The notes under the pieces: model-generated
Database searches by the model: none
Seen by the model: the letters and a program-made list of their open reading frames with translations, nothing else
Told to the model about the DNA's origin: nothing
Program-made: the position numbers and the translations under genes
Assembly (NCBI GenBank): GCA_036172245.1
Contig: JAYWIR010000039.1
Coordinates: forward strand, 620,001-684,000
Direction of reading: 5' to 3'
DNA: 64,000 bases
DNA from: Raillietiella orientalis
Taxonomy: Eukaryota
In this document: piece after piece, positions 14,401-63,920 of the stretch
Layout: the number at the start of each line of letters is the position of its first letter
How positions within the stretch are numbered: position 1 is the first letter of the stretch

Positions 14401-17400
14401 CTCGCTTTGGTGCTCTTATCCTGTTGAGTGGCGGCAAGATTTATCGAATGGTCTTCCAGACCGAACTTGAAAAACGAAGTACAGTAAGTAAATCAGAAGA
14501 CCAGAAATCAAGCGTTTTCAATTGATGCAAACACACACCTACACGATCGCCATCTTCCATTTGCTGCTCCACGTTGATCCACCTGAAAATAGAATCGCAG
14601 CTGACGTTCCTACCAGGAAAGTGACCTCTCTTCGAAATGTTGACGCAACGTTGAAAATGGAGCGCGTTAAGCTCTGGTTCCCTTCTCGAGGATTAATCTA
14701 TTTTCCCTCTATTGCTCATCTCGCGAAATTACACTCACCGGCGACGAGCTCTCCTTCTTTTTTTCTTTTTGCCACCGTGGGTTCGACGGTTCTCTTCCGA
14801 CCCCGCAACCTCTGGTTCTCGTTTGAATGCCGATGGCGTTGCCATCCCGTGTCGGGGATGCTCGTAACCGCAGCTCTCTTTAACTCTCTTTTTGCAAGAC
14901 TTTTCATCGTCTCCAGCTCTGGCGTTCGCCTTGCAAAATGCTAGCCAGGAAACACAAAAAATCTTCCGTGTCCCAGTAGACAGCTTGTTTTTTCAATAAA
15001 GGTAGTTTTTTTTTTTTTTTTTTCCTTCCTTTCCGATGAAGTCATTCATAAGTGAGTTGTATTTTCGCTGCTCGATCTTCTAGGGATTCTTCTTTGAGCG
15101 TTCCCCCAGTAACTCGCGTGCCACCTTGGGCGAATTTCTGCCCTCTTAATTTTGGGAGTTTCCACCATCACCCGTCGCGTGTGATCATTTCCCTTATCTC
15201 TGCACGTTCACCCTTTTCACACGATCGTTGCTGCTCGCACTGTACGCGGTCAGTCTCCTTTATCCGTACTGGTAACCTGGTTTGGTCTTGGGTTTCGGTC
15301 TGAGGCGAGGAGAGAGCTTCAGTATTGTATACATCGCTGCTGCGTACTCGGGACTATTGATTTCAAGATGCCACCATCCTGGGGATCACCATCGTTTTCA
15401 ACCGGGTCGCGCCGCAAATTTCTTCAATTGCAATTATTGTTTCCATTTTTGCCTTTCGATGCAAAAAGTTCTTCTTCCAAGGAGAGCACGGTGCGCATAT
15501 TCATTTATGAAACTCACCGGCGTGAGTTATTCTTCTCGTTCGATTTACTCTCTCATTCATTCTTTTTGATCGTCCATTCTCGGTTCCCGCTGCTAATTGA
15601 TAACCGGCCAACCCTTCGTTTCCTTGGATTAATGAACCGATGCTGTTCAAAGGCAGATTTCATTTCATTTTTCATTTCGGATGGCCATGTCGATGAATGC
15701 TTTGGTTTTCTGAAATTCGGCGCTCTCCGCGCGAGAAGTGCGGGGCGTCGGGCGGGTTCGTTTCATCTGATGATTTGCTTCGGGATCAGCGTCGTCGAAC
15801 GGATGCTGATCAGCGAGTCGGGTAGCCGGGATCGGACGAGTCATTACTCTGCGGAAACTTTCCTTTCCCTCGAAAGCCCCAAAAAGTTTGCCAAGGGGGG
15901 TTTTCCAGTCTGAATCGAATTTTTTTTCGAATTTTCCTGCACGCTTTTGTTCTGCTCAAGGAATTCGTTTTTCTTCGGTTTCCAAAGTTGAGGTTTCGGT
16001 GGCACGCAATCTGCAGTTTTTGCGCCTCATCCCCTTAGGCGGTCTTCCGAGCTCCCGTGGAAAGACATCATCGGTGTGAAAAGAGACAAATTAGTTGGCG
16101 TCTAAAAATTCCAGTCTTTCCGCGGAGTGACATTCGCTTTTCGGTCTTCAGGGCCTGCCAAGGGGCCTTCGTGAAAAGGTTTCTGTGCGTCATGAAAGCT
16201 TGCGTGTGTACCGTAAGCAGTCTGATCATTCCTGCCCATGTGCGTACGCTGGTGATTAACCATTCGTCATTAATTCGACGCACATGCCTTGCGCTCCCTG
16301 ACATGCTTCAGTGTACTTTACCTGGTACTCTAAACTCTATTGAATGGGATATAAGAAGTCTTTCTGACAAATTGATCCCTTCGTTCTGGGGGGGGAGGGG
16401 CAGAGGGGAAGAGGAAAGAGAAAGAAAGAAAAAAAAAAATGAAAAATTAATGTTAGGAGGATTTCCCTTTCTTCTCTTGAGATCGCTGATCTCCATGACT
16501 GCGCAGTCTTTCGAATCAATTATCGGAAGAGTGTGCAGGAAAGCTTATTAATCGATTTGTTTTGAACACTTGCATCCAAGTTACTCGAAAACAATTCGGA
16601 AGACGTCATTTCGTTACGATGATCACGGTGCAGCGTCGCCAAAGGGCACGGCAATGAGTTGTGAATGAGACGCACCTTAATTTCGTCTTCAGTGAGGAGA
16701 AGGACGTGGTGACTCACGTTGCAATTTCGTTCCCATCGTTCTGACGCCAGTACTTTGGTTGCCCGGGCGACGTTTCTTTTCGCGATCGTGGGATGGGGAT
16801 GCCACGGATGATCCTGTTCATCAAGGGTTCATAACGGAGCTGCTGTGGTCGCCAGCGTCCTCAAGAAAAGGTCTGGATCTCATTGCACAGTGAGAACCGA
16901 AAGGAATCAGCCTCGGCTGTCCTCCACGAAGATCGTTCGAGGTCCAAGCCTCCGATCGTTCTGGTGCGTCCGCACACGCATTCCCGGCTCACTCGAAGAA
17001 AAACGAAAGGGTGGATTGTGTGGTCGTGCGCGCACCGTGGCTCCAAGTGATCGCTCGTGCTAGCATGTGGCACGCGTGACCCGAAATATCGGAAAGCAGT
17101 GGCAGGCGATTGCTCCATCCTGATGGATGATGCGCCTCTCCATCCAAAAACATCTTTCGCTTATCTCGTTGTTTTCGGTTGGCGGGATGGAATCGTCCTG
17201 GTTGTCGTCCCATCTTCCCAAAGCTCTTGGAGGAGTACGGGAGGGTGGAAAACTGCAGTCTGTTCACGGGAATTTTCCCGATTCGGTTTGCTTTCCTTGG
17301 CATTCGTACTACGGTCAGGGCTTGCGAGTTCCTCCCCCCTAGCAGTGAAGCCTCTCCACGACCGTGTGCCCGACGTGTTCGTGGCAGTGTTCTTGTGTTG

Positions 17401-19136
17401 CAGCACCGGACTCGATTGTGAGTTTCCCTTGCAGTTGTTTTGACAGCATTTCCTTTTGCTGCTTTACGTCATCGCTTGCCTTTTGTTCGCATCCACGGTC
17501 TCGCAAACAACAGCGGCGACCAGGAATGCCCACTTGAGGACCGAATGCCCCATCGGTTAACCGGCAGGGGAAAAGTCCCTGCTCTTTTGTTCCTTCATTC
17601 GTGCTTTACGCCGTTTGACACGACACGATTTTTCCACTTGGTGGCATCTTTGTGTGTCGGTGGTACATCCAGTCGTTTGCGATCGAATACGGATAAGCTG
17701 CTCGTTCTTTTCGTCAGTTGTGCGATAGCACAGTTACTCACATAAACCTTTTCGCCGTGGTATCATTTCTATGATTGCCTGCATTCGAGAGGGAGACTCT
17801 CGCCTCGAAGGGAATTTGCTTAAATTCCAGTCGGTTGTGACTAACGGAATGCCGTACTAGATGAGAAAGCTGAATTTCGGTCCAGCTCGCTTCTGGCTTT
17901 GTGCGGTTGCATCTTTCCGTTTATTAATTGTAAATGCCCGATAGTGAAGGAAGTGAAGATTAATGATGGTAATAAAGAAATACGCGCCACCGTGAGGGTG
18001 CTGCGCTCTGCATTGTGATTTGTCTGCGCGTCCCCTCGTCTTTTGCAAGATTCTTTATCAATATCGAATTTCTTTCCTGGTAAAATGTCATTTGGCATTC
18101 GCTTCTTTTTGTTGTTTTCCAATCGACTGCCTATCTGTGATTATAAGGCGAAGAATTTGTTCTTTGTTTTGATTTCCTGCTGCTCTTAAATGCGCTCTCA
18201 ACGGGGTTGTTTTTTTTTTTTTTCTTTCAAGGAGAGAAGGAATGTCGGAGAGTCTTTTGGACAGATTGGATGATGAGGCAAGGACCGTTGTGCTCAGCAA
18301 ACAGTACCGCATGAATTCCGAAATCACCCGTCTTGCCAACATGTTGATCTATGACGGAGCTCTCGAGTGCGCCAATGATGCAGTTGCCTCTGGGACTCTT
18401 TTTGCAGAAGAGCAAACGGTACGGGCGATGTTAGCAGCTACCTGGGAAGACACTCTTAAACGTCATTTACAGGGTTACTCGAATCTTTCCGATTGGTTGC
18501 AAGTTGTGCTCGACCCTAGCATCGACCATTCCGTTGTGTACCTCGACACGTGGCCTCTGAATGCTCACCAAAGCTCCCAGAATGCGCCAAGAGAGCCTCC
18601 TGAAGAAGCCTGCATAGCGGCGGACATTTTGAAAGCGCTCGTGTCGGTAAGGATCCTCGGAGTGGTGGTGATGGAGCGCAGCTTCACTAGCACCTTGGGA
18701 TTCCGCACCACGCTTGCGGAGTGATTACCCCTTTCCGGGAGGATGTCCATCGTTTGCAGCGTGCGTGCTCCGCGCGCGACGTCGGTCAGGTCGAAATCAG
18801 TACCGTCGATAGGTACCAAGGACGAGACAAGAATGTGATCATCTTTTGCTGCACCAGAAACGCAGCAAATAAGAATTCCGTGAGTGGAAACGAATGGCAG
18901 GTTTAAAGTTTTTCGGGTCCTCATAGAAAAATTCCATATTGGAAGATGTCCGCCGCCTCAACGTCGCCATCACCAGATCCAAGCACAAATTGGTCATTAT
19001 AGGGAACAGCCGCTTCCTTGAAAAGTATGCCCCTTTCCGGAAGTTATTCAGCATCCTGCGATTCGATCGAAAGTACATGTTGAGACGACTCGCCACCACT
19101 TACTGTTTAGAATCGAGTTTTGTGACCACCTCTTGA
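5437..19136 (+). CDS. DNA2: DNA replication ATP-dependent helicase/nuclease DNA2; exons 5437-6338, 6573-6710, 6794-7043, 7088-7441, 7485-7615, 7661-7858, 7902-8084, 8129-8664, 8711-9146, 18232-18646, 18691-18879, 18927-19136
   Basis: Fe-S cysteines: CLRRAVL and CSRCPFLLPC. Nuclease motifs: EENIWSPRFGVKGRIDLT and PLELKTG...HRGQVILY. SF1B helicase motifs: GMPGAGKT (split by an intron), TSYTHSAVDNIL, IIDECTQ, LVGDPMQLPP, QYRMN, GVITPF, TVDRYQGRDK, RRLNVAITRSK. All introns are GT-AG with consistent phase. The start codon and the ~300 aa low-complexity first exon are less certain. Confidence 0.93.
10775..12163 (-). CDS. Cuticle protein with chitin-binding Rebers-Riddiford domain, nested antisense in DNA2 intron 9; exons 12163-12152, 11380-11178, 11126-10775
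   Basis: A micro-exon ATG CTT CAA TGG|GTGAGT splices to ttccaag|GAG, giving the signal peptide MLQWEYILLLAFCMATESLA. The R&R motif YHSQNDLGGYNYGY...KQEIRYPDGSVRGYYS|YTAPNGQ...YVADHLGFR is restored by removing a 51-nt GT-AG intron (11127-11177). AATAAA on - at 10690-10695. Confidence 0.88.
12272..12277 (-). promoter_or_regulatory. Candidate TATA box (TATAAAG) of the cuticle protein gene
   Basis: TATAAA on the - strand ~110 nt upstream of the predicted ATG. Position and sequence are the only support. Confidence 0.35.
14262..14324. repeat. Pyrimidine/(CT)n low-complexity tract
   Basis: Near-pure C/T run ending in ctctctttctctctctttctctc. Confidence 0.7.
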
Positions 19137-22100
19137 AGACTCTTCTTCCCCTTTGCGAGCAGGGTGGACTCGTAAGGGGAGTACACGCCCCTGTGACAGC
19201 GAGCTGGGCGAATAATAGTAATGCATATGCGCAGATTATTTGCTAATGACCTGCGTTTACCATTCATTTCTACTGTGTCTGTCGAATCGTGAAATTCTGA
19301 AATTGCGTTTTCAGTTCGGGCAGTTCTTTGCTCTGAATCTTCCAGGAGCATCGGTCCGTGCGAGCCAATTTTCACGAGTGGCTTTTAGTCTTTTCGTGGT
19401 CCCCCCCTCTTCTACAACGGAACGGCTCCCGGGCACGGCAATTTGTTGTTACCTTGATATAAATAGCAATTAGAGGAATGCATCGTGGCCACGTTTGTAA
19501 GCGGAAGTGCGTGTCTGAGTGACGAAGAGTTGCTGCAGCGCGCGTCTGGACCTCGTATCTCTGAAAATTCGAGTGTGCACCGGCTGGTGAAAGTTTGATG
19601 CGAGGGACTTCATTAGATTGCAGACAATTAAGCTGGTCACCCGTCGGGTGTTTTTTTTTTTTTTTTTTTGCTCTTTTATTCTTTTGGAAAAAAAGGAAAA
19701 AGAAAAAAAAAAAAGAGAGGACGTTCTTGGGAACGTTTTTGTTTAAGAAATGAAATCAGATGCAGCAAGAGATGGAAAAACCCTGAAAAGACAAGTATCC
19801 ACTGAATAAGATCCACATGCTGTTTGGATTCGGTGTGTGTTCTGCGTGTTTTAAGCGATCTCACTGCACAGGTGGTGGTCCACGTGCTGGCGAGATCGCA
19901 CGCCGTCTGTTTTCGTCCTCTGAAGAAACCTGCTCGAGTATTTTGCTTGGATCGAGCACTGCAGTCTTTGCGAGCTGCATCTGACCTTTGGTTCAGCATG
20001 GGGGTGTCCTGGACCGCGGAACCGTTTCCCCGTACCTCCATGAGAACACGTACTTGGGGTTCAGCACGGAGGCTGGCGAGATGGCTTTCAGTTTGCCATC
20101 ACGCCGCTACCCATGCGGGTGCGCGGATAAAAGAGTCGTGTCCGGTTTTATTTATTTTTTGTTTTCTGCCCCAGTTATCTTCCCGAAACTGGGGCTTAAA
20201 CCAGATTCACAGTTGAAAACACGCGGTTCGTACGTTCGACATTGATGCAGAAACGTCCTCCTACCGGAATGCCGATTTCCAGTTCATCTCGGCGAATTGG
20301 GTGCTGCATTTTTTTGCTTTCATCTTTTTTGTTTGCTTTCTCAGTTTCTAGGAGTGCTGCAACACAGAACAGCGTTTTTTTTTTTTTTTTTTCCCCGGCA
20401 AGAGGCCGGTGCGTGCGACTACTCAATGGTTCAGATTTCGAGAGTGATCTTTGACTATCTTCCGTCTGCGTGCTGCTCTCGAATCTGGCCTTCCGATCCA
20501 GGCACATGCGCGTGATCCTTTCTGGTGTCATCTGCGTCCGGAAGATACGTTTCACCTGATTTCGTTTTTGTTTGTTTTATGCACCGCATCATCAGACGAG
20601 AGAAGAGAACTGGTTGGCTGATTGATGAGCCAAAGGAGGGACCGCACGGTCGTTTCGTTAGGACCGTATTGATGGCCACGAAGCTCACTTTGTATCACTC
20701 CAGGTAGAGATAAGAAACAAAAGTGCCCTTGAGAACCCATTGGAAAGAGCGCGAGCAGCGTTTTTTCTTGCACTCGCAGCGCGATGAAAGAACGGGAGTG
20801 GCGGACAGGAGTACCAATGCATCTTTCTCTAGAAAACCATCTTCTTTCTCTCCCGATTTTGGCATTCCGAAATGGTAGCGCTGTTTCCCACTCGAAAAAA
20901 ATGCTATTCGAACGTGCGGCAGGATGAGCTAACAGCGATGTTGAAGGGGCGACCGATGGTGAGCATCGACGGCGTCCTCAGCCCATTCGAATGAAGAGCA
21001 AAATCGTCCTACCTGGCTCCTTGTTGCTTTTTACTCATGCTGCCGGAATTCTCTGCAAGATTGTAGCTCCCCTTTCCTCCCCCCCCCCACATCAAAAAAA
21101 AAAAAAAAAGAAATCCGATCACATTTCCCGGGTCTACAAAAGGAAGCAGGCGACTGGAATTTGAGAATTCCGTCCTTAAGGGTACGAATCGTGCGTGACA
21201 CTGATTAGTAACCTCCTCTGTCTTCGCGTGGCTCCCGAACTGCGTCGGCTATCACGAGGTTTTCTTTGCATGGAAGTGAAGAAAAGTGCAGTTTTGGGGG
21301 GAGTGTTGATCTTTCTGGAATTTGCTTTGGGCGCTGGTAAAATTTGGTCTGCATGAGGCGGGACGAAGGGGCGCGGATTTTGTCCTTCGGTTCCCAGAGC
21401 TTTGAACAGCTGTGCAGAGTCAACTACTACCTGTTCGACGTATCATCTTTGGCCATTTCTCTGATATGGGTTCAATCTTGAGAAGCAAAGAGCGAGCTCG
21501 CATGCGCAACAGCATCGTGTGACTCAACAAGACCAGACCTATCGGAAGTGATGCTGCTGCCTAGCGCTTGCCTAATCGATGAGGTCAGGTGTACTACGCC
21601 TACAGCGTTCTAGGTCAAACTACACAGCCGCCGCCATTCGCCACCTCTGGCTGCTGTTCATAAAGGCACACAGCAGCCGCTTCGGAACCGAGATCACCAA
21701 GACAAAGATTGAGACTGCAGACCTCTTGATGGAGGCCGCCAGATGCCTTGGGTTTTTTTCTTTTTTGGCTCTAATACTGCGCCATTAGAGCGCGATTTCA
21801 GAACTCACTGTTGTTGTCCGCGGGACACCAAGAACTCATGCCACTCGTGCGCGGCAGCTGCACATTCTCCTGGACGCCGGTCGGTTTCATGATGGTGCAG
21901 TTTGGGGTGCGTTTCACCTGGGCGTTCCGGTCGCGCTAGCGCTTCACTGGAGCCTTCGGCACTCCTTATTCACACAGCTCGAGATCGAACCAGAGCAGTT
22001 TGTAGTGCCCGAAGATGGTCTTGGAGAACCAGTATTTACTGAAGGTACCCTCTGGCGGGTGCAGAAGGTCATCTTGGACCGAATGTCTCAGAGGACACTC

Positions 22101-25100: not shown

Positions 25101-28100
25101 TCCACCGGACAATTAAGTGCGTATTCGATCGACCGATTCCATCAGATCCCCCTTTCTTCCCCTTTTTTCTCTCCTTCGTCCTGCGCTTTCTCCTCTTGCC
25201 TTCCTTAATTTTCCTCCACCCCCATCCCCCACCCTCGCGACATGTAGTTCCCCTTGCTGTTCGCCGGTCTCTGAGGGCAAGCGTTCGTTGTCTAAGGGAC
25301 CGTTGCTACGGGAGCGACCGGCGCGAATCCGAACGCCAGCCGAAACAACGCAGCGTCGTCGCTCCACAATCCACGCTCCACCATTTTCCCGCCATCCTTT
25401 CCTCGACTCTGCATGGTTGCCTCCCGTAAGGATTTTTTCCGTCTTGCACATTGTGTGTTCTGGACATTTCCAGGCGGCGTGTGGACGCGTGGTCAGTGCT
25501 CGGCGTTCCTGTTCTCCCAGATGCTCCGACCAAAAGATGGGCAGCGCCGTGAAGTGGGGGGTGGGGAGGTTTTTTCTTTTTTTTGACTGCAACCAGCACC
25601 ATTTTGCATCGGTGAAGCACCAAAGCAAACCCCTCGTGCTGAGAAAGGTGTCGCTCCTCCCGTTCTTACCTCCCATTCCTCCCGATTCTTCGGCCGGACC
25701 TCTTCAAGAACGCAGTTTTACGCAGTGGCACCGTTCCACATTGCAGTGGATGAAATTACAGCCCTGCGTTACATTACATTGCCTCCTAGTCAACGTTGTA
25801 CACGCAGACGGAGAATCCCCGGCGTAGTCATAGGAAGAGGCTTTCACGCGGATTCGCATGACCTCTCTGGCGACTTCATAATAGTAAGGGGTGAGTTGTT
25901 TACTTCTAGGGGAGAGGTTGGGAGAGTTTCCTGTTTTCAGGAGGAAACGAGAGTGGCCCCTTTTTTTTTTTTTTTTTTTTTTGTTTCTGAGTGGCTTTGT
26001 CGCTCGGATGGGAGCTTTCGAAATCTTTTGTAGGTCCCTCCAGATCCGATCCGATCCCCGGCCGAAGAAATTCCTCTCCTCGGAGATACCGTTGCGAGTG
26101 TGACCCGGAAGCCCTTGGCGACCTATTTTTTCCCCCGCCGGCCCAGGCTGTTGAACCACATGTTTTAACCCGGGGACTGGGTTTATTTCACCTCAGGTTC
26201 GCTTGCATCCGGGCAGTAAGGAAAGGCGAGGTAAGCAAGGATTCCTGTTCCTCTCTGGGAGACGGGTGGTGGTGGGTTGGTGGTGGTCGAGGCCGCACAC
26301 CGTCGCGGTGGCCGACCTGGCACCGGCTCGGCAGGGGCTCACCTCGCTCGGTCTTGGCCGCGAACCTTGAGGAAAGGGTGGGGAGTTAATGGGGTGTGAA
26401 CGGCGATGTACACCGAAGGAGAACGCGACGAGTTTACCGTGTACCGAGCACACTGCACGGTCGGGAACTTGCTCAGGAACCTCTGGGGAAATCACGCTCC
26501 CGGAGCGGTGCCGAAAGGAGGTGGCGGCGGCACAGAGGGCCGGGATCGGGCCGCAAAGGACTTCTGACTCTGGGTACTTCGCGATGGAGGTTGGACTTTC
26601 CCGCTGCGTTTTTCCCTTGCACCTCCTTCGGCAGTGTCAACGGTGGGAGTGGGAAGGGGGAAGGGGAACGGGGGGCGCTAGGAGTCTGGGAGGTGGTGAC
26701 GGTGGTCAGCCTTGACTGCCCCCTCCGCTTGTCGGCGAGGATTCGCAGCCATCACCTACCTTTGCAGGTACCACGCCTTACGGGTCCCTGCGTCCGGACG
26801 TGCACCCGGCGTTAGCGCGTGCGTGCGGCTGACGCAATTGGGAGGAAAGCGCGGAGGAAGAGCGGCTGCCTCCGAGATGAGCTCGAGTCGCGGATGGTAG
26901 GAGTTTCCTCAGGTCTCTCAGGAGGCGGCGGAGGAAGGGAGAGCCGGGATGCCCTCTTGAGGGCCTCCCGAGAGTCTCGGGGAGAGCAAGGGTCTTCCCT
27001 TTGGTTCCGGAAGTCGGGATAACCACGCGCGGGCAGTTTGCTGCTCCAAGGAGTGGCCGCGCCCCCTTCCGGCAGCACCAGCTCCCTAGTAAAGAGGGGT
27101 CACGTGCGGCAGACGCACGCACTCACCGCCTCCCTTTCGCTGAGGAGACCGCATGTCCATCTCGCGGAAAGACTGCGAGGCGTTGCTCGCTCGGATAGCT
27201 CCAAGCGCTGGTCGTCGTAAGGGGGAAGCAGGGCTCCGGAGAGCTCATCCATTCCGCTCGCTCGCAGGCACGGACGGGTTCCACCTCATATGCGCTCTTT
27301 GGGGCTCCACTGACACTTCCCGTGCGTTTCTTGGGCGCTGCCTTTCATGGTCCCTACGAGGAGGGAAGGGGAAAAGGGCGCTGGGATTTCAAGGGTGCGG
27401 CACCCAGGTGTCGCTCCTTCCAAGCAGCTGACTGCCGTGCTCTCTCACTCCGGAGAGCGGTCAGGGCGACAGAATGGATTTCGACCCAGAAGCAGGGCGA
27501 ACTGACCTGGCGGGTCGGAACTTGCTTGCGTAGCCACGCTGCAATCCCTGAAGCCGACTCCGTGGGGTTCTTTCGCAGCAGACGCACTCCGTTGCCGGCC
27601 GTGCCGGAGGGAATGCTCCGCCGGGCTAGGGACACTTCGCGTACAAACGGTGGTCAGTTCTGGGAGGGGTGGAGGCACCCGGCCAAGGGAGGAAAGGCGG
27701 CGGAAGCGATGCCTGAGGGCATCTCGACCGAGGGAGACGAGGGTTTCCGCCAACCCGCTCGGCATCGGAGGAGAACGAAAGGAGAGAGGAAGGGAAGACG
27801 ACAAGGGTGCAGAAGAGAAGAGCAGGGAGGCAGCGACGTCTCTCCTTTTCTGCCTGTCTGGTGCTGGCCGGAAGCTTGCCGAAGGGAAGGATCTTTGAGG
27901 AGCGTAAGCAAAAAGGAGAGGACTCCCAGAAAGCAGAACGTTCGGGATGTCCACCGCAGCCTCCTGACCCACCGAGAGACGGACTTCGAACGTGGGAAGG
28001 AGAGCAGCTTTTTGGCAGGCCCCTTGGGACTGAGCAGAGGTAGCAGGCATTTGTTGGCTCCGGGGGGCTGGATGGTCCCGCCGAATCACTCAGGAGACTC

Positions 28101-46013: not shown

Positions 46014-46121
46014 GGCTTCGCGGTATGACGTCAGAGTGAGCCATCAGCACGGTTCCCAACCGTGCCATCTAGAAACGCAGCCTGAGTGACTTGAAGCGGC
46101 AGGCTTCGAGCGTGGCTCTGC
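46014..46121 (-). repeat. Diverged inverted copy of the ~100-nt repeat family (see 63686-63920)
   Basis: ggcttcgcggtatgacgtcagag...atcagcacggttcccaac...ctgagtgacttgaagcggc...tcgagcgtggctctgc aligns to the reverse complement of ~63688-63796. Confidence 0.85.
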
Positions 46122-51700: not shown

Positions 51701-52383
51701 GTGGCCGCTCATCCGGGGCACGAAGAGATCACTGGATCTGGGTCGTCTCGCGTGCCATCCGGGGAGCTGGCGCTTCGGCGCGATCGGATCGGATCTGGTT
51801 CGCGAACTCCCTGATAGATGGCAGGTCGCTATGTGCGAAATACAATCAATCCTTTCGGAGTGGCATTCACGGTCCTGCTGCTCGCTTCCGGGAAACCCTC
51901 CCAACTGAGTCAAGGGCGCTCGATCCCCTCCCGGTTCTGCGCACTTCTGGCTGATCAACCGTTCCACATGACGAAGCGTCCTGGGGAAAAGGATGCACCG
52001 CATCTCCTGTGGTTCCCCGTCACGGTAGGAGCGGTTGAGCCGACGGGTCCGTCCTTTCCCTCCCGTGCTGCGTGGACGTGGCGCTTAGATGAGGACGCGT
52101 GATATTTCGAATGCATGGACGCGCGGAAGCACGTGGAAGCGGACGCATGTGCTGCTGCTGCTTCACAGTTTCATGTACGCAGATGCACCCGTGCGATGCG
52201 TAGGCACGCGACACAGCACGCGCGCCGAAAGCGGTCTGGAGGCGAGCGCGCAGCAGCCTCGAACCGGAGCCGACGTTTCGCTGGTTGTCGAGAGCGTCTT
52301 CGGGAGGTGGAAGGGAGCCACACCCTTGCTGCGGGGCGCTCTCCTTGCATCTTCCGCGCCAGAGAGAGAGCGGCTTCTCGCAG

Positions 52384-52492
52384 TTTCCAGTCGCTCAGCC
52401 TGTATTATTGGATTGCACTGTTGCGAGCCGTGCTGATCGCGCACTCTGACGCCACACCACGAAACCGCACGCGAAGCGGGCCAGTTTCAAGT
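52384..52492 (+). repeat. Single diverged copy of the ~100-nt repeat family
   Basis: tcgctcagcctgtattattggattgcactgttgcgagccgtgctgatcgcgcactctgacgccacaccacgaaaccgcacg is collinear with 63721-63802. Confidence 0.9.
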
Positions 52493-53626
52493 AGGCAACG
52501 GGTTTCCAAGCAACGTTGACAAGGCAGCTTCGGCTTTCCCGACGTACACGCTTCGGCTGTACATGCACTCGAATCAGCTTTCCCGTTTCAGCAGCACGGC
52601 TTTGAGAAATGACCGTTGCCTCCCGAAGCCGTCGTTCCGGCGCGCATGCGCAACGGCAGGCAATGCGCCGTCATTCTCCGGACGTGCGTCTCTTCTCGTC
52701 TCTGGGCTGGAGCGAGCGCAGCTACTGCCGCCGTCTCGAGTTTTTCGGCAAGGTGCAGCTTTCATTCCCATCATGCGAACGTAGAGGTGCGGGCGCTACG
52801 GATGCGGATCCTCTGCCCCGTAGGCATGGGTTAGCCTCCCGCCACGCGCTGGTCAGGAAAGTCGCGCCGGCTATCTGCTCTGCGCGACCACGAAATCACG
52901 TGCGCTGCGCGACTCACGACTTACGACCACCGATCTCGCGGGCCGATGCAGATGCTGGACAAGATTGCTGCGGCGCAAATCTGCAAGCCATCGCTGTTTC
53001 CCGTGCTATCGCGGGTCTTTCAATCTGATCGCTGCCTGTCTCGTTCCGGAAATGGGAGAAAATCCCGCCAGCCCGCCCTTGGAATGGAACCAATTTCGGG
53101 TAACCTATTTTTCTTCCTATTCCATCTTCGGGAACGGCGCATGCCCCGAATCTCGGACGCGAAAGCGCACTGACGCAACAACCGCTCTCTGTTCAGCAGA
53201 GCGAAAAAGTTTCCCGTTTCCCGGACAACCCTATGCCAACGCAGACGTTTCGACGATTAAAATCTTATATCTTTGTTTGGGAGCAATTTGGGGGAGCTAT
53301 CTGGCGGTCGGATCTCTCTACGGGAGATGAATGATCATTTCCCGGTACTTCCAGTTTCGTGTGCACCCTTGCCGTCAAGTGAGTTCGGATTCTTCGCCCT
53401 TCTTCCGGGGGCTTGCCTCGGAAGGGAAGAAGGCACTTGGAAGATGCTTCTCGGGCGTCCCGGAAGGGAGGGAGAGCGCACTTTCCAAGGGGAGAGGTCC
53501 GCAGGAGGTTCGGTGGAGGAGAGGTCGCCCGCCATCTTTGGTCACCCACGACGTCGGACGGGGATCTGAGTGGGGAGCACCAGGGGACGTGCGCAAGCAG
53601 TCCTCATCGAGACTCCTGGACTTAGT

Positions 53627-53700
53627 GCCCGCGTCGGAGGCCTTGTGGTTAAGGCCTCCGCGTGTGGCACCGTGCGTCGCGGGTTCGAATACTTCGGCAG
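53627..53700 (+). ncRNA. tRNA-like Pol III promoter head (A box/B box); not a functional tRNA
   Basis: A-box-like AGGCCTTGTGG-TTAAGGC and B-box-like GGTTCGAATAC at tRNA spacing. tGTGgc sits at the anticodon position (His-like). The acceptor and T stems do not pair well. Confidence 0.65.
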
Positions 53701-53828
53701 AAACTCTGACGTCACTGCGTCGTCGGATTCCGAGTTTCTCCTGCAATGGCAATGGTTGGCCGAGACATTCGGGCGTGGCACCGGCGGTGGATTAAGCCGG
53801 AGGCCTCCGATGAAGGCCGGAACAATGG

Positions 53829-54382
53829 GAGTGGACCTTCGGGTCTTCCCAGGAATAAAGGAGTGGGGAGTTCCCCCTCCGGTTTCAAGATGGAACAGGG
53901 GCCCTCACGGGCACCTCTTCAGTTGTTCAAAGGAGCGGACCCTCCCCGTTGCGGGGGAGGACCCTCCGAGTCGTCGCCTCTTCACAGAGTACAAGGAAGC
54001 AAGCGAGAGCTATTCCCTGCGGGAAGCTGCAGCGCCCCTTCCGAGTTTCGGAAGCGTCCCTTCGGGGTTCTCTTCAGAGGAGTGAATAGAAGCGGTTCCC
54101 TTGCGGGTTCCCTCCGGAGAAGAAATTCCTACAAGCGGATCCTTTCCGGGTTCCCTTCGGAGAAGTTGAAATGGAGAGGACCACCCCCTATTACGGGGGT
54201 GTCCCTCCAGAGAGAATGAGGAAGGAGATTCCCTTCGAGGTTCCCCTCCGGGGACAACCAGGGTGGGAGGTGCGATCCCCCCATCCGGGGGGATCCCTTC
54301 CCAAGCGTGAGAGGAACGGACTCCGAGCCTTTCCTGGATTCATAAGGCGGACCCCCATCCCGGGATGCCCCTATCCTGAAGA
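53829..54382 (+). repeat. Degenerate array of ~12 hairpin units (period ~30-70 nt, core 38-47 nt)
   Basis: Consensus GAAGCGGA-[C-rich arm]-loop-[G-rich arm]-TCCCTCCGGAGAAG-variable spacer, e.g. aagcggttcccttgcgggttccctccggagaag and aagcggatcctttccgggttcccttcggagaag. Confidence 0.75.
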
Positions 54383-56089
54383 ATTACACTTCCCCCTGCG
54401 GGCTGCCGCGGGCGGAGGGGCGTTGAAATAAAACTGTATTTAATGTTTAAAAAGAGCCACTTGCGCCGCGAGGCACGCGACCGGTTCTGAGGTACTTAGC
54501 AAATCAAAATAAAAAAAGAAAACTCTTAAAAAAAAAAAAGCTGAAAGAAAAACAGCATACAGAAGAAAAAAGAAGAACTCAAGGATTTCCATCGTCCTAG
54601 GCCAATAGTAAAGATCTCCTCGTGGGGGTCGCTACTGGCCTTGAAAAAAAAAAAAAAAAACTCCTGGACTTACAGGATGCGGCTTTGCCCGAGGTCCTGA
54701 TATGCCCTCGAAGAGTGCCGCTTCATCGTACATCATTTCAGTTGCATTTCGGGGTAGTCAAGCCCTTGAGCGAAGGATCAACTTCATTTTCTTAATGTTT
54801 TTTTTTTTTTTTTTTCTACGAAAGATAATGCTGGAAACAGATGAAGGAGACGTCCCCTTTCGTCACCAGCCACCGTCTTCGCCTGCGTCTTCTTTCCGGG
54901 TTTCTTGCGCCGCGGGCAGTGTCCCTTTCGTTGCTTCCGGTGCACATCCGGGGAACGCTCTTTGTCGGAGCGCGCCCATCTCTTTTCCGAAGCATCTTCC
55001 GCCTGCTTCCTGGGAACTTTGACTCCTCAGAATGCTCCATCATTTTGTTCATCCCAGAGAGTGGGTCTCGCGTCCCTGCTTCTGTCTTGTCTTTCCCGCT
55101 GCTGTCGCTGGGTGGCGCCGAGTGCGAGAGGCGTTCCGCATGACTGCCTTCTCTTCGCCCTGGGGCACGGGATGCGCCGGCTGACTTGGATCCGTTCCCG
55201 GAACGGTCTGGTTGGCAGCTGACAGCTCTCCCAGTCTCGCAAGGTGGTGCCCCACCTGCGGTACGCTAGCTCATCGCATCTGTCCGCCATCTCTCGTGGA
55301 CTGCTAGAAACCGCAGGGACTCTTCCCACCAACCTGTCTCAGAGGCGATGGGCGCTCTGACCCCGGTGCGCGGTGCACGCGTGGGCAGAAAGCGCCTCAT
55401 GGGGCTAGCGAACTGAGCGTGTTTGTCACGGAGAGGGAGGTGTCTCGGTGTGCGATGCTGCTCCACCCAGGAGATGCTTGGCTTCTCTGCGACAAGCGAT
55501 GCTTCCTGCTGCCCTGTACCGAACTGTGAGTAGGCGGAAGGTGATCTTCTTCTTCATCTGCGCATCCAATCCTGCGTCCACAAATGTGATCTCGAGTCCT
55601 TTCCCCTCAGACTCAACATTTCAACTTGTTCCTCTTGGAAGCTTGCCTTCCCCCCCCTCCCCCCCGACAGGATGCTCACGATGCCACTGTGGGCTTCGTT
55701 TCGTTTTTCGCGGCCCATCCCGTAAAATTCATCCCCCATTTAAGCATTCACCGAAAGGCGGCGATCGTAACCAGCCCTATCCTGTCACCATCGAAGGGAT
55801 CGTTCCTTGGGATGAATTTAACGCTTTCGGATCCGGAGAGGTCAGCACTTTGGGGCAGCCTCCAGCGCCACCCGACTCGGTTTCGTTGGATTTGAGCAGC
55901 CGCGAGGCCACTTTCACAGGCAAAGATAAACACGAAGCGCGGAGCGTTCTAGGAGCCCAGGCCTCCCTGCTGCCGCCAGCGAGATAGCCGGAAGCGACTG
56001 TCCGTGCTCGTCCACCATCGGGCCAGGATTAGTTTAAGAAAAGGCTTGCAGGTGCCTCTAAAGCGAGGAGGCAGCAGGAGCGAGGCGAA

Positions 56090-60997: not shown

Positions 60998-63685
60998 TTA
61001 AAAGGCTGGTTGCAATGAGTGGCATCTGACGGAAGGTCCTGGAACTGCATAGCGGAGAGGAGGCGTGCACCGCTAATGCATATTAATTAATATACATAGC
61101 GACGTCGCATATTTCCGAGGGTCATCTGGGAGGACCCTGGGACTCCGAAATTCCTGCTCCCTTGCGACGAGGCTCCTCGAACGCTCTCCTGCCAGAGTGT
61201 TTTCGCGGCGCCTGCGGTCCGGCAAATCCATCCCCGCAGCAGTAGCGCCCAGGGCAGGAGAGCTGATTCTTCAATCCCCGGGCAAAAGTTGCTGGAGTTG
61301 ATTTTTGATGTGGGCGCACCATCGTCTCGGCGCCAATGAGTGAGCGGAATGTCGGCGGCGAGTGTTTTTCGGAGCCCATTAGCTCGAGCACAAGCGCGAA
61401 GCCGTCGAAGGCACAGATGTCTTCCGCTACCGCCTACCAGCACTGAGCGCCCGACTGTCGAGGAAGCTTCCTCACCCGCTTTGAGATTCTTTCCACCCTT
61501 TGCCGTCCTACACGGTTTGCCCGGCCGGTGGCTGCAGCACCCTCTGGCGATGCGTTCTGCTCCACTGCATCGACTCCAGCAGACCACTGGAATGAGAACC
61601 ATTCGGGATGGTGTCGGTCACAGGTCTGAACCCGACACGCGTCAACCGGAGGCCACGCACGCTCCTCCTAGAAAGTGCATTCGTGAATCCGAGGGAAGCA
61701 GTTTCCGGGAAAAAAACAGGGCGAGGGCCTTTCCCCTTCTAGCAGCTCCCCCTCCCTCGTGATCCCAGAAGGTGCTGCCTGGGTTCCAAGGCAGCACCTT
61801 CTGGTCAAGTCAAGGGTATCGGAGATGGGTCGAGCGTGCGGGAGCTGTCCGGGAAGTTGTCCGCGGGGTGAGGGCAGTGCCTGCTCTGCTAGCGGTCCTC
61901 TGGATTCCTCTTCGAGCGGGGCGGCATTCGAGGAAGGAGAAACAGATGTCTATCTGGCGCTTCCAGCTGCAGGGGAACCCAGTTCTTACGCACTAGCAGC
62001 CGGGCTAGGGGGCACAAAAATGCAGCCGGTGGGGAAGGGGGAGAGGGGAAGTTGATGCTCCCTGCGCCCTCCCAAAGCCAGGGACACGATGGAAGATGGG
62101 AACCTTGCAAGATTCGCGTCGTGCCCCACTTATCGTGGCCTCGCAGATCCCCCACGCCGAGAAGTCTACTCTCCTTCCCTCAAAAAAGGGGAAAAAAAAG
62201 AAACGGAGGGAGGTCTCTCTGGATTTCGGGTGCCAGCTCCTTCCCTTGGTCCAAGCCCCCATCCCCCATTGGAAGTCGTCATGGGCTTCGTGCTCTGAGG
62301 GTCACGGGCCGCTTAAAGGCTGCACTTTCGATTGCGGGTTGAATCCAACGCCTCAGGGATGACGCGACTCCGATTCGCACTTTCCCATTAGTCTTCCCCA
62401 CGCGAAATCCCACAGGAACACAACGCTTCCCCACACACCCCACGGTCATTGCAGTCGGTGATGGAAGAGGGGTTTTCCTTCCTTTTCTTTTCTCCTTTCT
62501 GAAAAAAAAAAGGATAAATCGGAAAGGAACAGGAAACTCCGGGAGCAGAGTTCCCCACCCTTTCAGTCCTGGTTGAAAATCCTCCCCCTCTTGCGAGTCT
62601 CGAACGAACCATACCCTGGGAGGCACGGGATGCTGCCTTGGTGACGCTGGTGGGGAATTCGGATCGGTGAGGAACTGAGCTGAGGCGTCGTGGACCGCGG
62701 GCACGTGGCGCATTCGACAGGCAAAGCTCCCTTGCTTTCGGCCCCCGTCCTCCTCTTCCCCCGCACTTCACCGGAGTACTCCTGCGAGGAGGCAGCCGCC
62801 CTTCTCTCACGAGCGACTCCACGTAACCCGACGCGCGTCCCTCAGGACGAGGCCTCCCAGGCTTGGGACAGGAACGCATCCAGCTTGGAGAACAGAAACC
62901 TTTGGAGTCGTTCTATCGGGAAGGAGAAGGGGAGAGGAACCCTCTTCTCTGTTTTGCACTGCCCAAGGAGCTCGGAGGGAGGGGGAGGATGGTGCGAAAA
63001 TCAGTGATTTCACCCTACGCGATCGAATCAAAGTGGTACCCTTCGAACGACACGAAGAGATCGTGAACCGCTCATGCTGAGCGCGGACTCATTTTCAGTG
63101 CGCAGCACATCAGCGAGCTGCGCTCCCTCAAGCTGCTGCTCCCCCACTTCCTCGCAGCCGAGACGGCTGCGAGGAACACTTTTCATGGACCTCACTGAGC
63201 TCGGCGTTTGTCACCCCGCTTGGCGGGATCGTGCGAATCCTGAGCTGTGCACGGGCCTCAGGGGCAGGCATTCCGCGTCTGCTCCCCATCGACCCCCAGT
63301 TATCCGCGCTCTTTCGGGTCACCGCCAACTCTCGAGATGGTCAGCTGATTTTTCAGAAGCAGCGAGTTCACGAAGCACGGAATCACCTCTGCACACCAAT
63401 CTCAAATTTCTCTTCTCCTTGATCATCCAACGTGATCAATGAGGTTCCCTTCTCAGTCTCCTGTTTGCCAGGCTTTAATGGAGACGCGACAGGGACACGG
63501 ACTTCTCCAGGCGAAACGCCTGAACTGCCACTGGTAAAACTCTGTTTCGGTACCCGTTATCGCATTCTTGAACTTGCGGGATTCAGCCTCTGCAGCCCTC
63601 CGGCATGGAGTGGCACAGGGTGAACCACTCGGAACCGGCCCGAAAAGTGTCTCTTGCCCTCCCTCACATTGTACCGCACTTTCCG

Positions 63686-63920
63686 CCGCAGAGCCACGCT
63701 CGAGGTGGGCCGCTTTCAAGTCGCTCAGCCCGTATGTGTGGACTGCATTGTTGGGAGCCGTGCTGATCGCGTGCTCTGACGTCACACCGCGAAGCCGCAC
63801 GAGAGGCAGGTCGGTTTCGAGTCGCTCAGCCCGTATGTGTGGACTGCATTGTTGGGAGCCGTGCTGATCTCGTGCTCTGACGTCACACCGCGAAGCCGCA
63901 CGAAAGTTTTCGAGTCGCTC
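63686..63920 (+). repeat. Tandem ~101-nt repeat (two near-identical units plus flanking partials)
   Basis: Units start at 63721, 63822 and (partial) 63915. The first ~83 nt of the two full units differ by one substitution. Each full unit contains the palindrome TGACGTCA. Confidence 0.95.

What the first reader, a model, noticed from the sequence alone, without database searches (positions are those of the whole stretch)
53613..54672. Unusually long (~1.04 kb) modular tRNA-headed retroposon with intact TSD and no Pol III terminator
Seen: a perfect CTCCTGGACTTA repeat flanks, in order, a tRNA-like A/B-box head, a partly reiterated head segment (53773-53809), a hairpin array, AATAAA (54427), an A-rich linker (54501-54577), a terminal stem-loop and A17. 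There is no run of four Ts in 1,036 nt; the first is just downstream at ~54787, followed by a long T tract. Known: tRNA head plus poly(A) plus TSD is the signature of LINE-mobilised SINEs, which are usually a few hundred nt, and Pol III stops at T4 or longer. Inference: this is a full-length Pol III-transcribable non-autonomous element, or a retrocopy of a long structured ncRNA, and is much better preserved than the neighbouring transposon debris.
Basis: partly seen in the sequence, partly recalled or inferred. Interest (0 to 1): 0.72.

Follow-up and report, generated by a model that had tools for sequence, protein, structure and literature searches.

The report
Young 1-kb tRNA-headed non-coding retrocopy
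A recently inserted, non-coding 1-kb DNA copy of an RNA that begins with a decayed tRNA-like promoter and ends in a poly(A) tail sits in GC-rich DNA of an unsampled invertebrate; it is an ordinary kind of "copy-and-paste" insertion, and whether it belongs to an unusually long repeat family could not be tested.

Summary
A perfect 13-nt direct repeat (12 nt if the first A belongs to the tail) flanks a 1035-nt insert ending in A17. It is the only one of 16 long A/T runs in the window with such a repeat. This marks a young product of LINE-type target-primed reverse transcription.

The 5' end carries two motifs, each unique in the window, in tRNA order and spacing: a tRNA-Ser-type D-arm motif and a T-loop/B-box motif. 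It does not fold as a cloverleaf. ARAGORN at default settings and Rfam do not call it a tRNA; it forms a 46-nt hairpin.

The body holds significantly more long hairpins than shuffles or neighbouring DNA. The lack of T4 runs is real but not specific to the insert: the T4-free interval starts about 500 nt upstream.

No second copy was found in the window. No genome, sequencing run or repeat library was available, so family membership and the composite-versus-nested question remain open. No transposon debris was detected nearby.

Verdict: a new member of a known kind (SINE-like, LINE-mobilised non-autonomous retrocopy), of modest interest.

The parts
53612..53624 (+). Left copy of the target-site duplication ACTCCTGGACTTA (12 or 13 nt; the first A is ambiguous with the tail at the right copy)
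   Evidence: D14, 100% identity; the only A/T run of 16 with a repeat of 12 nt or more
53625..53705 (+). tRNA-related head. A-box-like motif at 53638-53648 (read by eye against the recalled consensus, 7 of 9 specified positions). tRNA-Ser-type D-arm motif GTGGTTAAGGC at 53645-53655. B-box/T-loop motif GGTTCGAATAC at 53682-53692. The first 46 nt (53625-53670) fold as a roughly 20-bp hairpin, not a cloverleaf.
   Evidence: both motifs unique in the window; motif present in human tRNA-Ser primers; z = -4.0; ARAGORN only at the 85% threshold; no tRNA call
53763..53817 (+). Weak partial reiteration of head motifs (GTGGCACCG, GGTGGATTAAGCC, GGAGGCCTCC)
   Evidence: D9 76% over 21 nt; I2 73% complementary over 26 nt; its fold is not better than shuffles (z = 0.09)
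53831..54420 (+). GC-rich non-coding body. It has 4 perfect hairpins with stems of 7 bp or more (53941-53960, 54038-54054, 54182-54201, 54274-54295) and 4-5 degenerate 40-43-nt tandem units at 54047-54257.
   Evidence: 2/500 shuffles, 0/136 windows; D1, D2, D4; unit alignment; z = -2.57 plus strand, -1.83 minus strand; no protein similarity
54421..54577 (+). A-rich region (49% A) with AATAAA at 54427 and 54508 and a pure A12 at 54528-54539, 14 nt after the second AATAAA. It is either an internal linker or the tail of a first retro-unit.
54578..54643 (+). 3' module with a stable terminal stem-loop (54599-54641) directly before the tail. Candidate recognition element for the reverse transcriptase.
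   Evidence: -27 kcal/mol, z = -3.5, 1 of 200 shuffles as stable
54644..54659 (+). Pure poly(A) tail (A17 if base 54660 is counted)
54660..54672 (+). Right copy of the target-site duplication
   Evidence: D14
54787..54815 (+). First downstream T4 (54787-54790) and T18 (54798-54815). This is where a Pol III transcript of this copy would be expected to stop. It is not part of the insert.

Best explanation
The 1035-nt insert is a young DNA copy of a non-coding RNA. It was made by the endonuclease and reverse transcriptase of a poly(A)-type LINE through target-primed reverse transcription.

Inferred steps: the enzyme nicked the bottom strand at the left edge of ACTCCTGGACTTA. It primed on the RNA's A-tail and copied the RNA to its 5' end. 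Repair of the staggered second nick then duplicated 12-13 nt of target.

The template RNA began about 13 nt upstream of an A-box-like motif, which is followed 33 nt later by a B-box-like motif. Both derive from a class-II (Ser-like) tRNA. The simplest reading is therefore an RNA polymerase III transcript driven by an internal tRNA-type promoter. That makes it a SINE-like non-autonomous retroposon with four modules: a tRNA-related head, a hairpin-rich body with short tandem units, an A-rich linker, and a 3' stem-loop plus A-tail.

Shown: the duplication, the tail, the sharp 5' edge at the tRNA-related motifs, the excess of hairpins, the absence of coding similarity, and the young age (perfect duplication and pure tail).

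Inferred: Pol III transcription, the LINE partner, and that all four modules travel as one unit.

The confidence of 0.45 is for the 'one-unit SINE-like element' reading. I put the narrower statement 'LINE-mediated retrocopy of a non-coding RNA' at about 0.9.
For: - Perfect 13-nt duplication abutting A17. It is the only one among 16 A/T runs, with about 0.013 expected by chance.
- GTGGTTAAGG and GGTTCGAAT are each unique in 128 kb. They occur on the same strand, in tRNA order, within the first 70 nt of the insert.
- GTGGTTAAGGC lies immediately 5' of the anticodon stem in human tRNA-Ser mutagenesis primers (PMC3299991, passage read).
- The 5' hairpin and the 3' stem-loop are each more stable than 199 of 200 shuffles.
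- The body has 4 stems of 7 bp or more, against a shuffle mean of 0.51. Only 2 of 500 shuffles reach 4. The maximum in 136 other windows is 2.
- No Pfam domain in any ORF of the insert. The 169-aa ORF has no homologue in the word-indexed search of a 5.8-billion-protein collection or among 1.84 billion representatives.
- A-richness continues on both sides of the A12 (54501-54577). This fits an internal linker better than a junction with an unrelated truncated element.
- The outer target site is not T-rich. Read, the nick lies after ...GGAGT on the bottom strand. A second, independent hit into the A-tail is therefore not specially favoured.
Against: - No second copy in the window by blastn or nhmmer. 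No shared 3' ends among the 16 A/T-run tails.
- Copy number could not be tested elsewhere. No genome is held, and six exact-pattern scans were blank.
- The head is not a recognisable tRNA. ARAGORN at default settings finds none. Rfam finds no tRNA even at E up to 10. The relaxed ARAGORN hit is 1 of 14 in the window.
- At 1018 nt without the tail, it lies outside the 75-662 nt range of the 175 SINE families in SINEBase (PMC3531059, passages read). It would also be long for a Pol III transcript.
- The lack of T4 is not specific to the element.
- AATAAA sits 14 nt before the internal A12. That is the geometry of a polyadenylated RNA end, which suggests the last 104 nt plus A17 may be a separate unit.
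Confidence: 0.45

Rival explanations
1. Two-part product. In one version, a first retrocopy (53625-54539, ending in its own poly(A)) later received a short 5'-truncated LINE or SINE tail (54540-54643 plus A-tail) inside its A-tract. In the other version, a single event produced a chimera when the reverse transcriptase started on the short RNA and switched template onto the poly(A) end of the long RNA. Either way the 1035-nt unit is a one-off and not a family consensus.
For: - AATAAA at 54508-54513 lies 14 nt before a pure A12, the canonical distance for a polyadenylated 3' end.
- An insertion into an A-tract would have an all-A duplication, which A12 and A17 can hide.
- The outer duplication would remain intact.
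- Chimeric retrocopies flanked by a single pair of direct repeats are documented for LINE reverse transcription in fungi and mammals (PMC2104539, abstract read).
- No second full-length copy in the window.
Against: - The 40 nt to the right of the A12 are also A/purine-rich. The A12 therefore sits inside a 77-nt A-rich tract and not at a sharp junction.
- Both A-runs are pure and the outer duplication is perfect. Two separate events would both have to be very recent, at one spot, in a window with no other recognisable retrocopy.
- The outer target site is not A/T-rich.
Confidence: 0.3
2. A single retrocopy (processed pseudogene) of one long cellular non-coding transcript. The source could be a structured lncRNA, or a read-through Pol III transcript from a tRNA-like pseudogene lacking a terminator. 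In either case it is not a mobile family.
For: - Length of about 1 kb, three AATAAA motifs, no coding similarity.
- Significant hairpin content.
- No other copy seen.
Against: - No AATAAA or ATTAAA within 130 nt upstream of the terminal A17, so the tail is not at a canonical Pol II poly(A) site.
- No Rfam family matches.
- The body's k-mer content correlates only weakly with surrounding GC-rich DNA (block means 0.11 or below, maximum 0.235). Its long-stem hairpin count is matched by 0 of 136 genomic windows. This argues against plain read-through into generic flank.
Confidence: 0.15
3. A 5'-truncated copy of an autonomous LINE, consisting of the end of ORF2 plus a long 3' UTR.
For: - Truncated LINE copies of about 1 kb are, from general knowledge, the commonest poly(A)-tailed, duplication-flanked insertions in many genomes.
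- One frame is open from the 5' edge to 54085.
- The 3' stem-loop is LINE-like.
Against: - No Pfam domain in any ORF of the insert.
- No hit for the 169-aa ORF among 1.84 billion representatives.
- No real PDB-sequence hit for the three plus-strand ORFs. The only hit is a repeat-summing artefact on designer PPR proteins at 3 bits per repeat.
- The 5' edge coincides with two tRNA-type motifs that are unique in the window. A random truncation point would not do this.
Confidence: 0.07

Closest known systems
tRNA-derived SINEs with head-body-tail structure (SINEBase definition, PMC3531059)
   Same: 5' module related to a Pol III-transcribed tRNA, with A- and B-box-like motifs at promoter spacing. 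Body of unknown origin. A-tail and target-site duplication. Non-coding. The 3' stem-loop could mimic a partner LINE.
   Different: At 1018 nt without the tail, it is longer than the 75-662 nt (mean 253) of the 175 families. The head does not fold as a cloverleaf and fails tRNA detectors. Repetitiveness, a defining feature, is untested.
Dimeric or complex SINEs with an internal A-rich linker (Alu-type architecture; general description in PMC3531059, the Alu detail recalled)
   Same: Two units joined by an A-rich stretch, with one terminal A-tail and one pair of duplications.
   Different: The right unit here is only about 66-104 nt. It has no promoter-like motifs and no similarity to the left unit (self-comparison gave no internal match).
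Sadhu non-autonomous non-LTR retroposons of Arabidopsis (PMC2848041, abstract and Background read)
   Same: Non-coding, poly(A) tract, 7-16 bp duplication, mobilisation by LINE machinery inferred, low copy number.
   Different: Sadhu has no similarity to tRNA and no A/B boxes. It is a plant family with no sequence relation to this insert.
Chimeric retrogenes made by LINE template switching (Magnaporthe WEIRD/Mg-SINE/MGL, PMC2104539, abstract read; U6-L1 chimeras in the search listing)
   Same: Several RNA-derived modules fused head to tail, ending in poly(A), flanked by one pair of short direct repeats (14 bp in the fungal tripartite case).
   Different: In those cases the parts are identifiable copies of known transcripts. 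Here no part could be matched to a source.
Mammalian T+ SINE tails (B2, Dip, Ves; PMC8466645, abstract in the search listing)
   Same: AATAAA embedded in an A-rich 3' region of a Pol III-type element.
   Different: No T-run terminator follows here; the sequence is only CTCTT before the A12. The class is described for mammals, and here the motif is internal, not terminal.

Membership tests
LINE-mediated (target-primed reverse transcription) retrocopy | Short direct duplication of the target flanking the insert | tested here: met
   13/13 identical; chance expectation about 0.013
LINE-mediated (target-primed reverse transcription) retrocopy | 3' poly(A) or simple-repeat tail directly before the downstream duplication | tested here: met
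   A17 at 54644-54660
SINE (SINEBase definition) | 5' head derived from a Pol III RNA, with an internal A/B-box promoter | tested here: inconclusive
   Two tRNA-type motifs, each unique in the window, in the right order and spacing. No cloverleaf. ARAGORN at default settings and Rfam are negative. The relaxed ARAGORN hit is 1 of 14 in the window.
SINE (SINEBase definition) | Repetitive: many dispersed copies with different target-site duplications | not testable with these tools
   No genome held; no runs listed; no copy in the 64-kb window
SINE (SINEBase definition) | Short: 75-662 nt without the tail in the 175 families | tested here: not met
   1018 nt without the tail against the range in PMC3531059
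SINE (SINEBase definition) | Non-coding, non-autonomous | tested here: met
   No Pfam domain; no homologue for the 169-aa ORF
tRNA gene or pseudogene | Cloverleaf recognised by a tRNA detector or covariance model | tested here: not met
   The minimum-energy fold of the first 46 nt is one long hairpin.
Processed pseudogene of a Pol II polyadenylated RNA | AAUAAA-type signal 10-30 nt before the terminal poly(A) | tested here: not met
   The nearest AATAAA to A17 is at 54508, 130 nt upstream; no ATTAAA. The geometry is met only for the internal A12.
5'-truncated LINE | Similarity to LINE ORF2 or reverse transcriptase in the 5' part | tested here: not met
   This is a weak test, because ORF2 C-termini are poorly conserved.
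Known structured RNA family (Rfam 15) | Covariance-model match at the gathering score | tested here: not met
   0 matches at gathering in the window; only chance-level hits at E up to 1 or 10
Described SINE or repeat family (Dfam, Repbase, SINEBank) | Full-length nucleotide match to a consensus | not testable with these tools
   No such library is on hand. The SINEBase supplements with the consensus sequences could not be read.

The most novel reading that the evidence does not exclude
The insert is a full-length, recently active member of a Pol III-driven, tRNA-Ser-like-headed composite SINE family of about 1 kb. That is well beyond the 662-nt maximum catalogued in SINEBase. Its head has been remodelled into a 20-bp hairpin, and its body is an array of G/C-run hairpins and 40-nt tandem units.

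A bolder variant, at a few percent at most: the tRNA-type promoter drives a hairpin-array transcript that is processed into small RNAs. This is recalled by analogy with the tRNA-miRNA (TMER) transcripts of murine gammaherpesvirus 68.
Probability: 0.3. Interest if true: 0.55.

Novelty: new member of a known kind. Interest (0 to 1): 0.3.

Why it matters
If the 1035-nt unit proves to be a multi-copy family, it would be among the longest tRNA-headed, presumably Pol III-driven retroposons. It would also be a snapshot of how SINEs are assembled from modules: a tRNA head, a hairpin body, an A-rich linker and a LINE-like 3' stem-loop.

Either way, the perfect duplication and pure tail show that a poly(A)-type LINE machinery has been active very recently in this poorly sampled invertebrate lineage. 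If the insert is a one-off retrocopy or chimera, it is routine.

Tried and rejected
**Own genome.** Not held.

**Public sequencing runs.** None was listed for 53300-55000, and no RNA holder was listed.

**Earlier findings of this scan.** Nothing for this genome or for look-alike sequence. The word search returned only unrelated elements from other genomes.

**Copies by proxy.**
- The 169-aa spurious ORF inside the insert gave no hit in the word-indexed protein search (68 candidates, none scored; lengths 92-296 aa only).
- It gave no hit among 1.84 billion representatives.

**Exact-pattern scans.**
- Head motif pair: 0 matches in metagenome, genome and viral contigs.
- 3' stem-loop: 0 matches in metagenome, genome and viral contigs.
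- All these collections probably lack this organism, so the blanks say little.

**Taxon.**
- The protein atlas gave no taxon.
- The Dna2 rift-barrel exon gave no hit among longer proteins.
- The Dna2 helicase exon gave at best 60% identity, to an ostracod, followed by molluscs, krill, horseshoe crabs and decapods.
- With the Chitin_bind_4 ORF, this suggests an arthropod without a close relative in the collection. I did not go further.

**PPR-like hit.** The hit of the frame-A ORF in the PDB sequences is rejected. It sums 8 identical repeats at about 3 bits each.

**Rfam hits.** CC2171, mir-4856 and psbT-asRNA are rejected as chance, being far below their gathering scores.

**Tandem Repeats Finder.** Nothing in 50-58 kb. 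The 40-nt units are too degenerate for it.

**k-mer comparison.** The body compared with the rest of the window gave only weak correlations.

**Literature.** The search for crustacean tRNA-derived SINEs returned nothing usable. The SINEBase supplements were not readable.

Full report
**What is there.**
- ACTCCTGGACTTA occurs at 53612-53624 and again at 54660-54672, 13 of 13 identical. The first A may belong to the tail, so the duplication is 12 or 13 nt.
- Between the two copies lie 1035 nt (53625-54659) ending in A17 (54644-54660).
- Inside there is an A12 (54528-54539) and no T run of 4 or more. The next T4 is at 54787 and a T18 follows at 54798-54815.
- AATAAA occurs at 53854, 54427 and 54508.

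**Is the duplication more than chance?** I scanned all 16 A or T runs of 11 nt or more in the window for a flanking repeat of 10 nt or more within 7 kb.
- Only this run has one of 12 nt or more.
- Two runs gave A-rich 10-mers 2.3 and 6.7 kb away, and 13 gave nothing.
- About 0.013 chance 13-mers are expected over all 16 runs.

A perfect duplication and a pure A17 mean the insertion is young. The structure is the signature of target-primed reverse transcription by a poly(A)-type LINE (established knowledge).

**The head.**
- ARAGORN at default settings finds no tRNA in the region or the window.
- Rfam finds no tRNA, even when only 231 nt are searched at E up to 10.
- With ARAGORN's threshold lowered to 85%, a class-II "tRNA-Leu"-like fold appears at 53623-53704. 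The same setting gives 14 such calls in the window, so the hit carries no weight by itself.
- What does carry weight: GTGGTTAAGG (53645) and GGTTCGAAT (53682) each occur exactly once in the 128 kb of both strands. They sit on the same strand, 37 nt apart start to start, within the first 70 nt of the insert.
- GGTTCGAAT is the T-loop/B-box motif (textbook consensus GGTTCGANNCC, recalled).
- GTGGTTAAGGC is the stretch just 5' of the anticodon stem in human tRNA-Ser mutagenesis primers (PMC3299991, passage read).
- Read by eye against the recalled A-box consensus TRGCNNAGTGG, positions 53638-53648 match 7 of 9 specified positions. That motif begins 13 nt from the 5' edge and ends 33 nt before the B-box-like motif, which is promoter-like geometry.

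The head is therefore tRNA-derived but remodelled. Its first 46 nt fold into one roughly 20-bp hairpin; the 86-nt stretch holding it has z = -4.0, with 1 of 200 shuffles as stable. The "reiterated head segment" is weak: 76% over 21 nt, plus a 73% inverted match. It has no folding signal (z = 0.09).

**The body and 3' end.**
- The 590-nt body (53831-54420) holds 4 perfect hairpins with stems of 7 bp or more. Dinucleotide shuffles average 0.51, and 2 of 500 reach 4. None of 136 other 590-nt windows of the GC-rich part reaches 4; the maximum is 2.
- With stems of 5 bp or more the count of 7 is not unusual: 47 of 300 shuffles and 15 of 136 windows reach it.
- Whole-body folding is modestly better than shuffles on both strands: z = -2.57 plus strand and -1.83 minus strand.
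- Four to five degenerate 40-43-nt tandem units lie at 54047-54257.
- The A-rich region 54421-54577 is 49% A.
- The last 66 nt form a stable stem-loop (z = -3.5) directly before the tail.
- No ORF of the insert has a Pfam domain.
- The 169-aa ORF has no relative in the word-indexed protein search or among 1.84 billion representatives.
- The three plus-strand ORFs have no real match among PDB sequences. The PPR hit is an artefact of summed repeats.
- Rfam has no family for any part.

**The "no terminator" argument.** The insert does lack T4, but the T4-free interval runs from 53113 to 54786, so it starts about 500 nt before the insert.
- In the GC-rich part of the window, 28 of 387 plus-strand and 65 of 387 minus-strand windows of 1035 nt are also T4-free.
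- The probability of no T4 is 0.0165 by dinucleotide shuffle and 0.27 by mononucleotide shuffle.

The lack of T4 is compatible with Pol III read-through but is not evidence for selection.

**Copies.**
- Within the window there is no second copy by blastn (word sizes 9 and 7) or nhmmer.
- The 200 nt before each of the 16 A/T runs share nothing beyond trivial overlaps.
- Outside the window I could test almost nothing. No genome is held, and no repeat library is on hand.
- Six exact-pattern scans of metagenome, prokaryote-genome and viral contigs were blank.

The defining SINE feature, repetitiveness, stays untested.

**One unit or several?**
- AATAAA at 54508 lies 14 nt before the pure A12. This is the geometry of a polyadenylated RNA end. 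The last 104 nt plus A17 could therefore be a second unit. It may have inserted into the first tail, with its all-A duplication hidden. Alternatively it may have been joined in one event by template switching, as documented for LINE chimeras (PMC2104539, abstract).
- Against this, the 40 nt to the right of the A12 are also A/purine-rich. The A12 therefore lies inside a 77-nt A-rich tract, like the linker of a complex SINE.
- Two very recent hits at one spot would also be a coincidence, in a window with no other recognisable retrocopy.

I weigh the readings as follows:

| Reading | Weight |
|---|---|
| One composite SINE-like unit | 0.45 |
| Nested or chimeric one-off | 0.30 |
| Single retrocopy of a cellular ncRNA | 0.15 |
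| 5'-truncated LINE | 0.07 |

**Context.**
- The first 19 kb hold Dna2 exons: the Dna2, Rift-barrel, AAA_11 and AAA_12 domains. An antisense Chitin_bind_4 (arthropod cuticle) ORF lies in a 9-kb gap between them.
- The best Dna2 helicase-exon matches reach only 60% identity, to an ostracod, followed by molluscs, krill, horseshoe crabs and decapods. The source is an invertebrate, probably an arthropod, without close relatives in the collection.
- From 22 kb onward the window is 55-66% GC with CpG observed/expected near 1.
- There are no protein domains after 18.7 kb: 5 of 150 ORFs have hits, all before that point, and 0 of 118.
- The window has only 7 self-similar pairs.

I found no transposon debris beside the insert.

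**Comparison with known kinds.**
- It works like a tRNA-derived SINE, or like a LINE-dependent non-autonomous retroposon such as Sadhu (PMC2848041).
- It cannot be filed as a SINE. Repetitiveness is untested, the head test is inconclusive, and its 1018 nt exceed the 75-662 nt range of SINEBase's 175 families (PMC3531059).
- The SINEBase supplements with the consensus sequences, and Dfam and Repbase, could not be consulted. A match to a described family therefore cannot be excluded.

**Verdict.** A real, young, LINE-mediated retrocopy of a non-coding RNA with a tRNA-derived 5' module. It is a new member of a known kind. Its interest is modest unless a genome-wide search shows a family of full-length copies.

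Noticed in passing
window 1-22000 versus 22001-64000: Sharp compositional change. The Dna2 gene region is 37-41% GC with CpG observed/expected of 0.64. From 22 kb the window is 55-66% GC with CpG observed/expected near 1. That stretch is 42 kb with no Pfam domain in any ORF of 100 aa or more and almost no internal repeats. What this long GC-rich, unique, apparently non-coding DNA represents is unexplained.
   Followed up: partly
window 7073-9147 and 18173-18721 (+); 10778-11392 (-): Dna2 helicase/nuclease exons are separated by a gap of about 9 kb that holds an antisense ORF with an arthropod cuticle-protein domain (Chitin_bind_4, 37.5 bits). This may be a gene nested in an intron.
   Followed up: no
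window 52383-52492, 63686-63920 (about two partly overlapping tandem units), 46014-46121 (-): A repeat unit of about 100 nt is present at three places, once as a tandem pair, at 76-85% identity. It is unrelated to the insert, and no ends or duplications were defined.
   Followed up: partly
window 54798-54815 and other T or A runs (15006-15023, 19651-19669, 20375-20392, 25961-25982, 12711-12726, 21094-21109): Many pure A/T runs of 16-22 nt have no detectable flanking duplication and no shared upstream sequence. They could be tails of old retrocopies or simple homopolymer expansions.
   Followed up: partly
window 61765-61804: A 40-nt near-perfect palindrome, 90% self-complementary.
   Followed up: no
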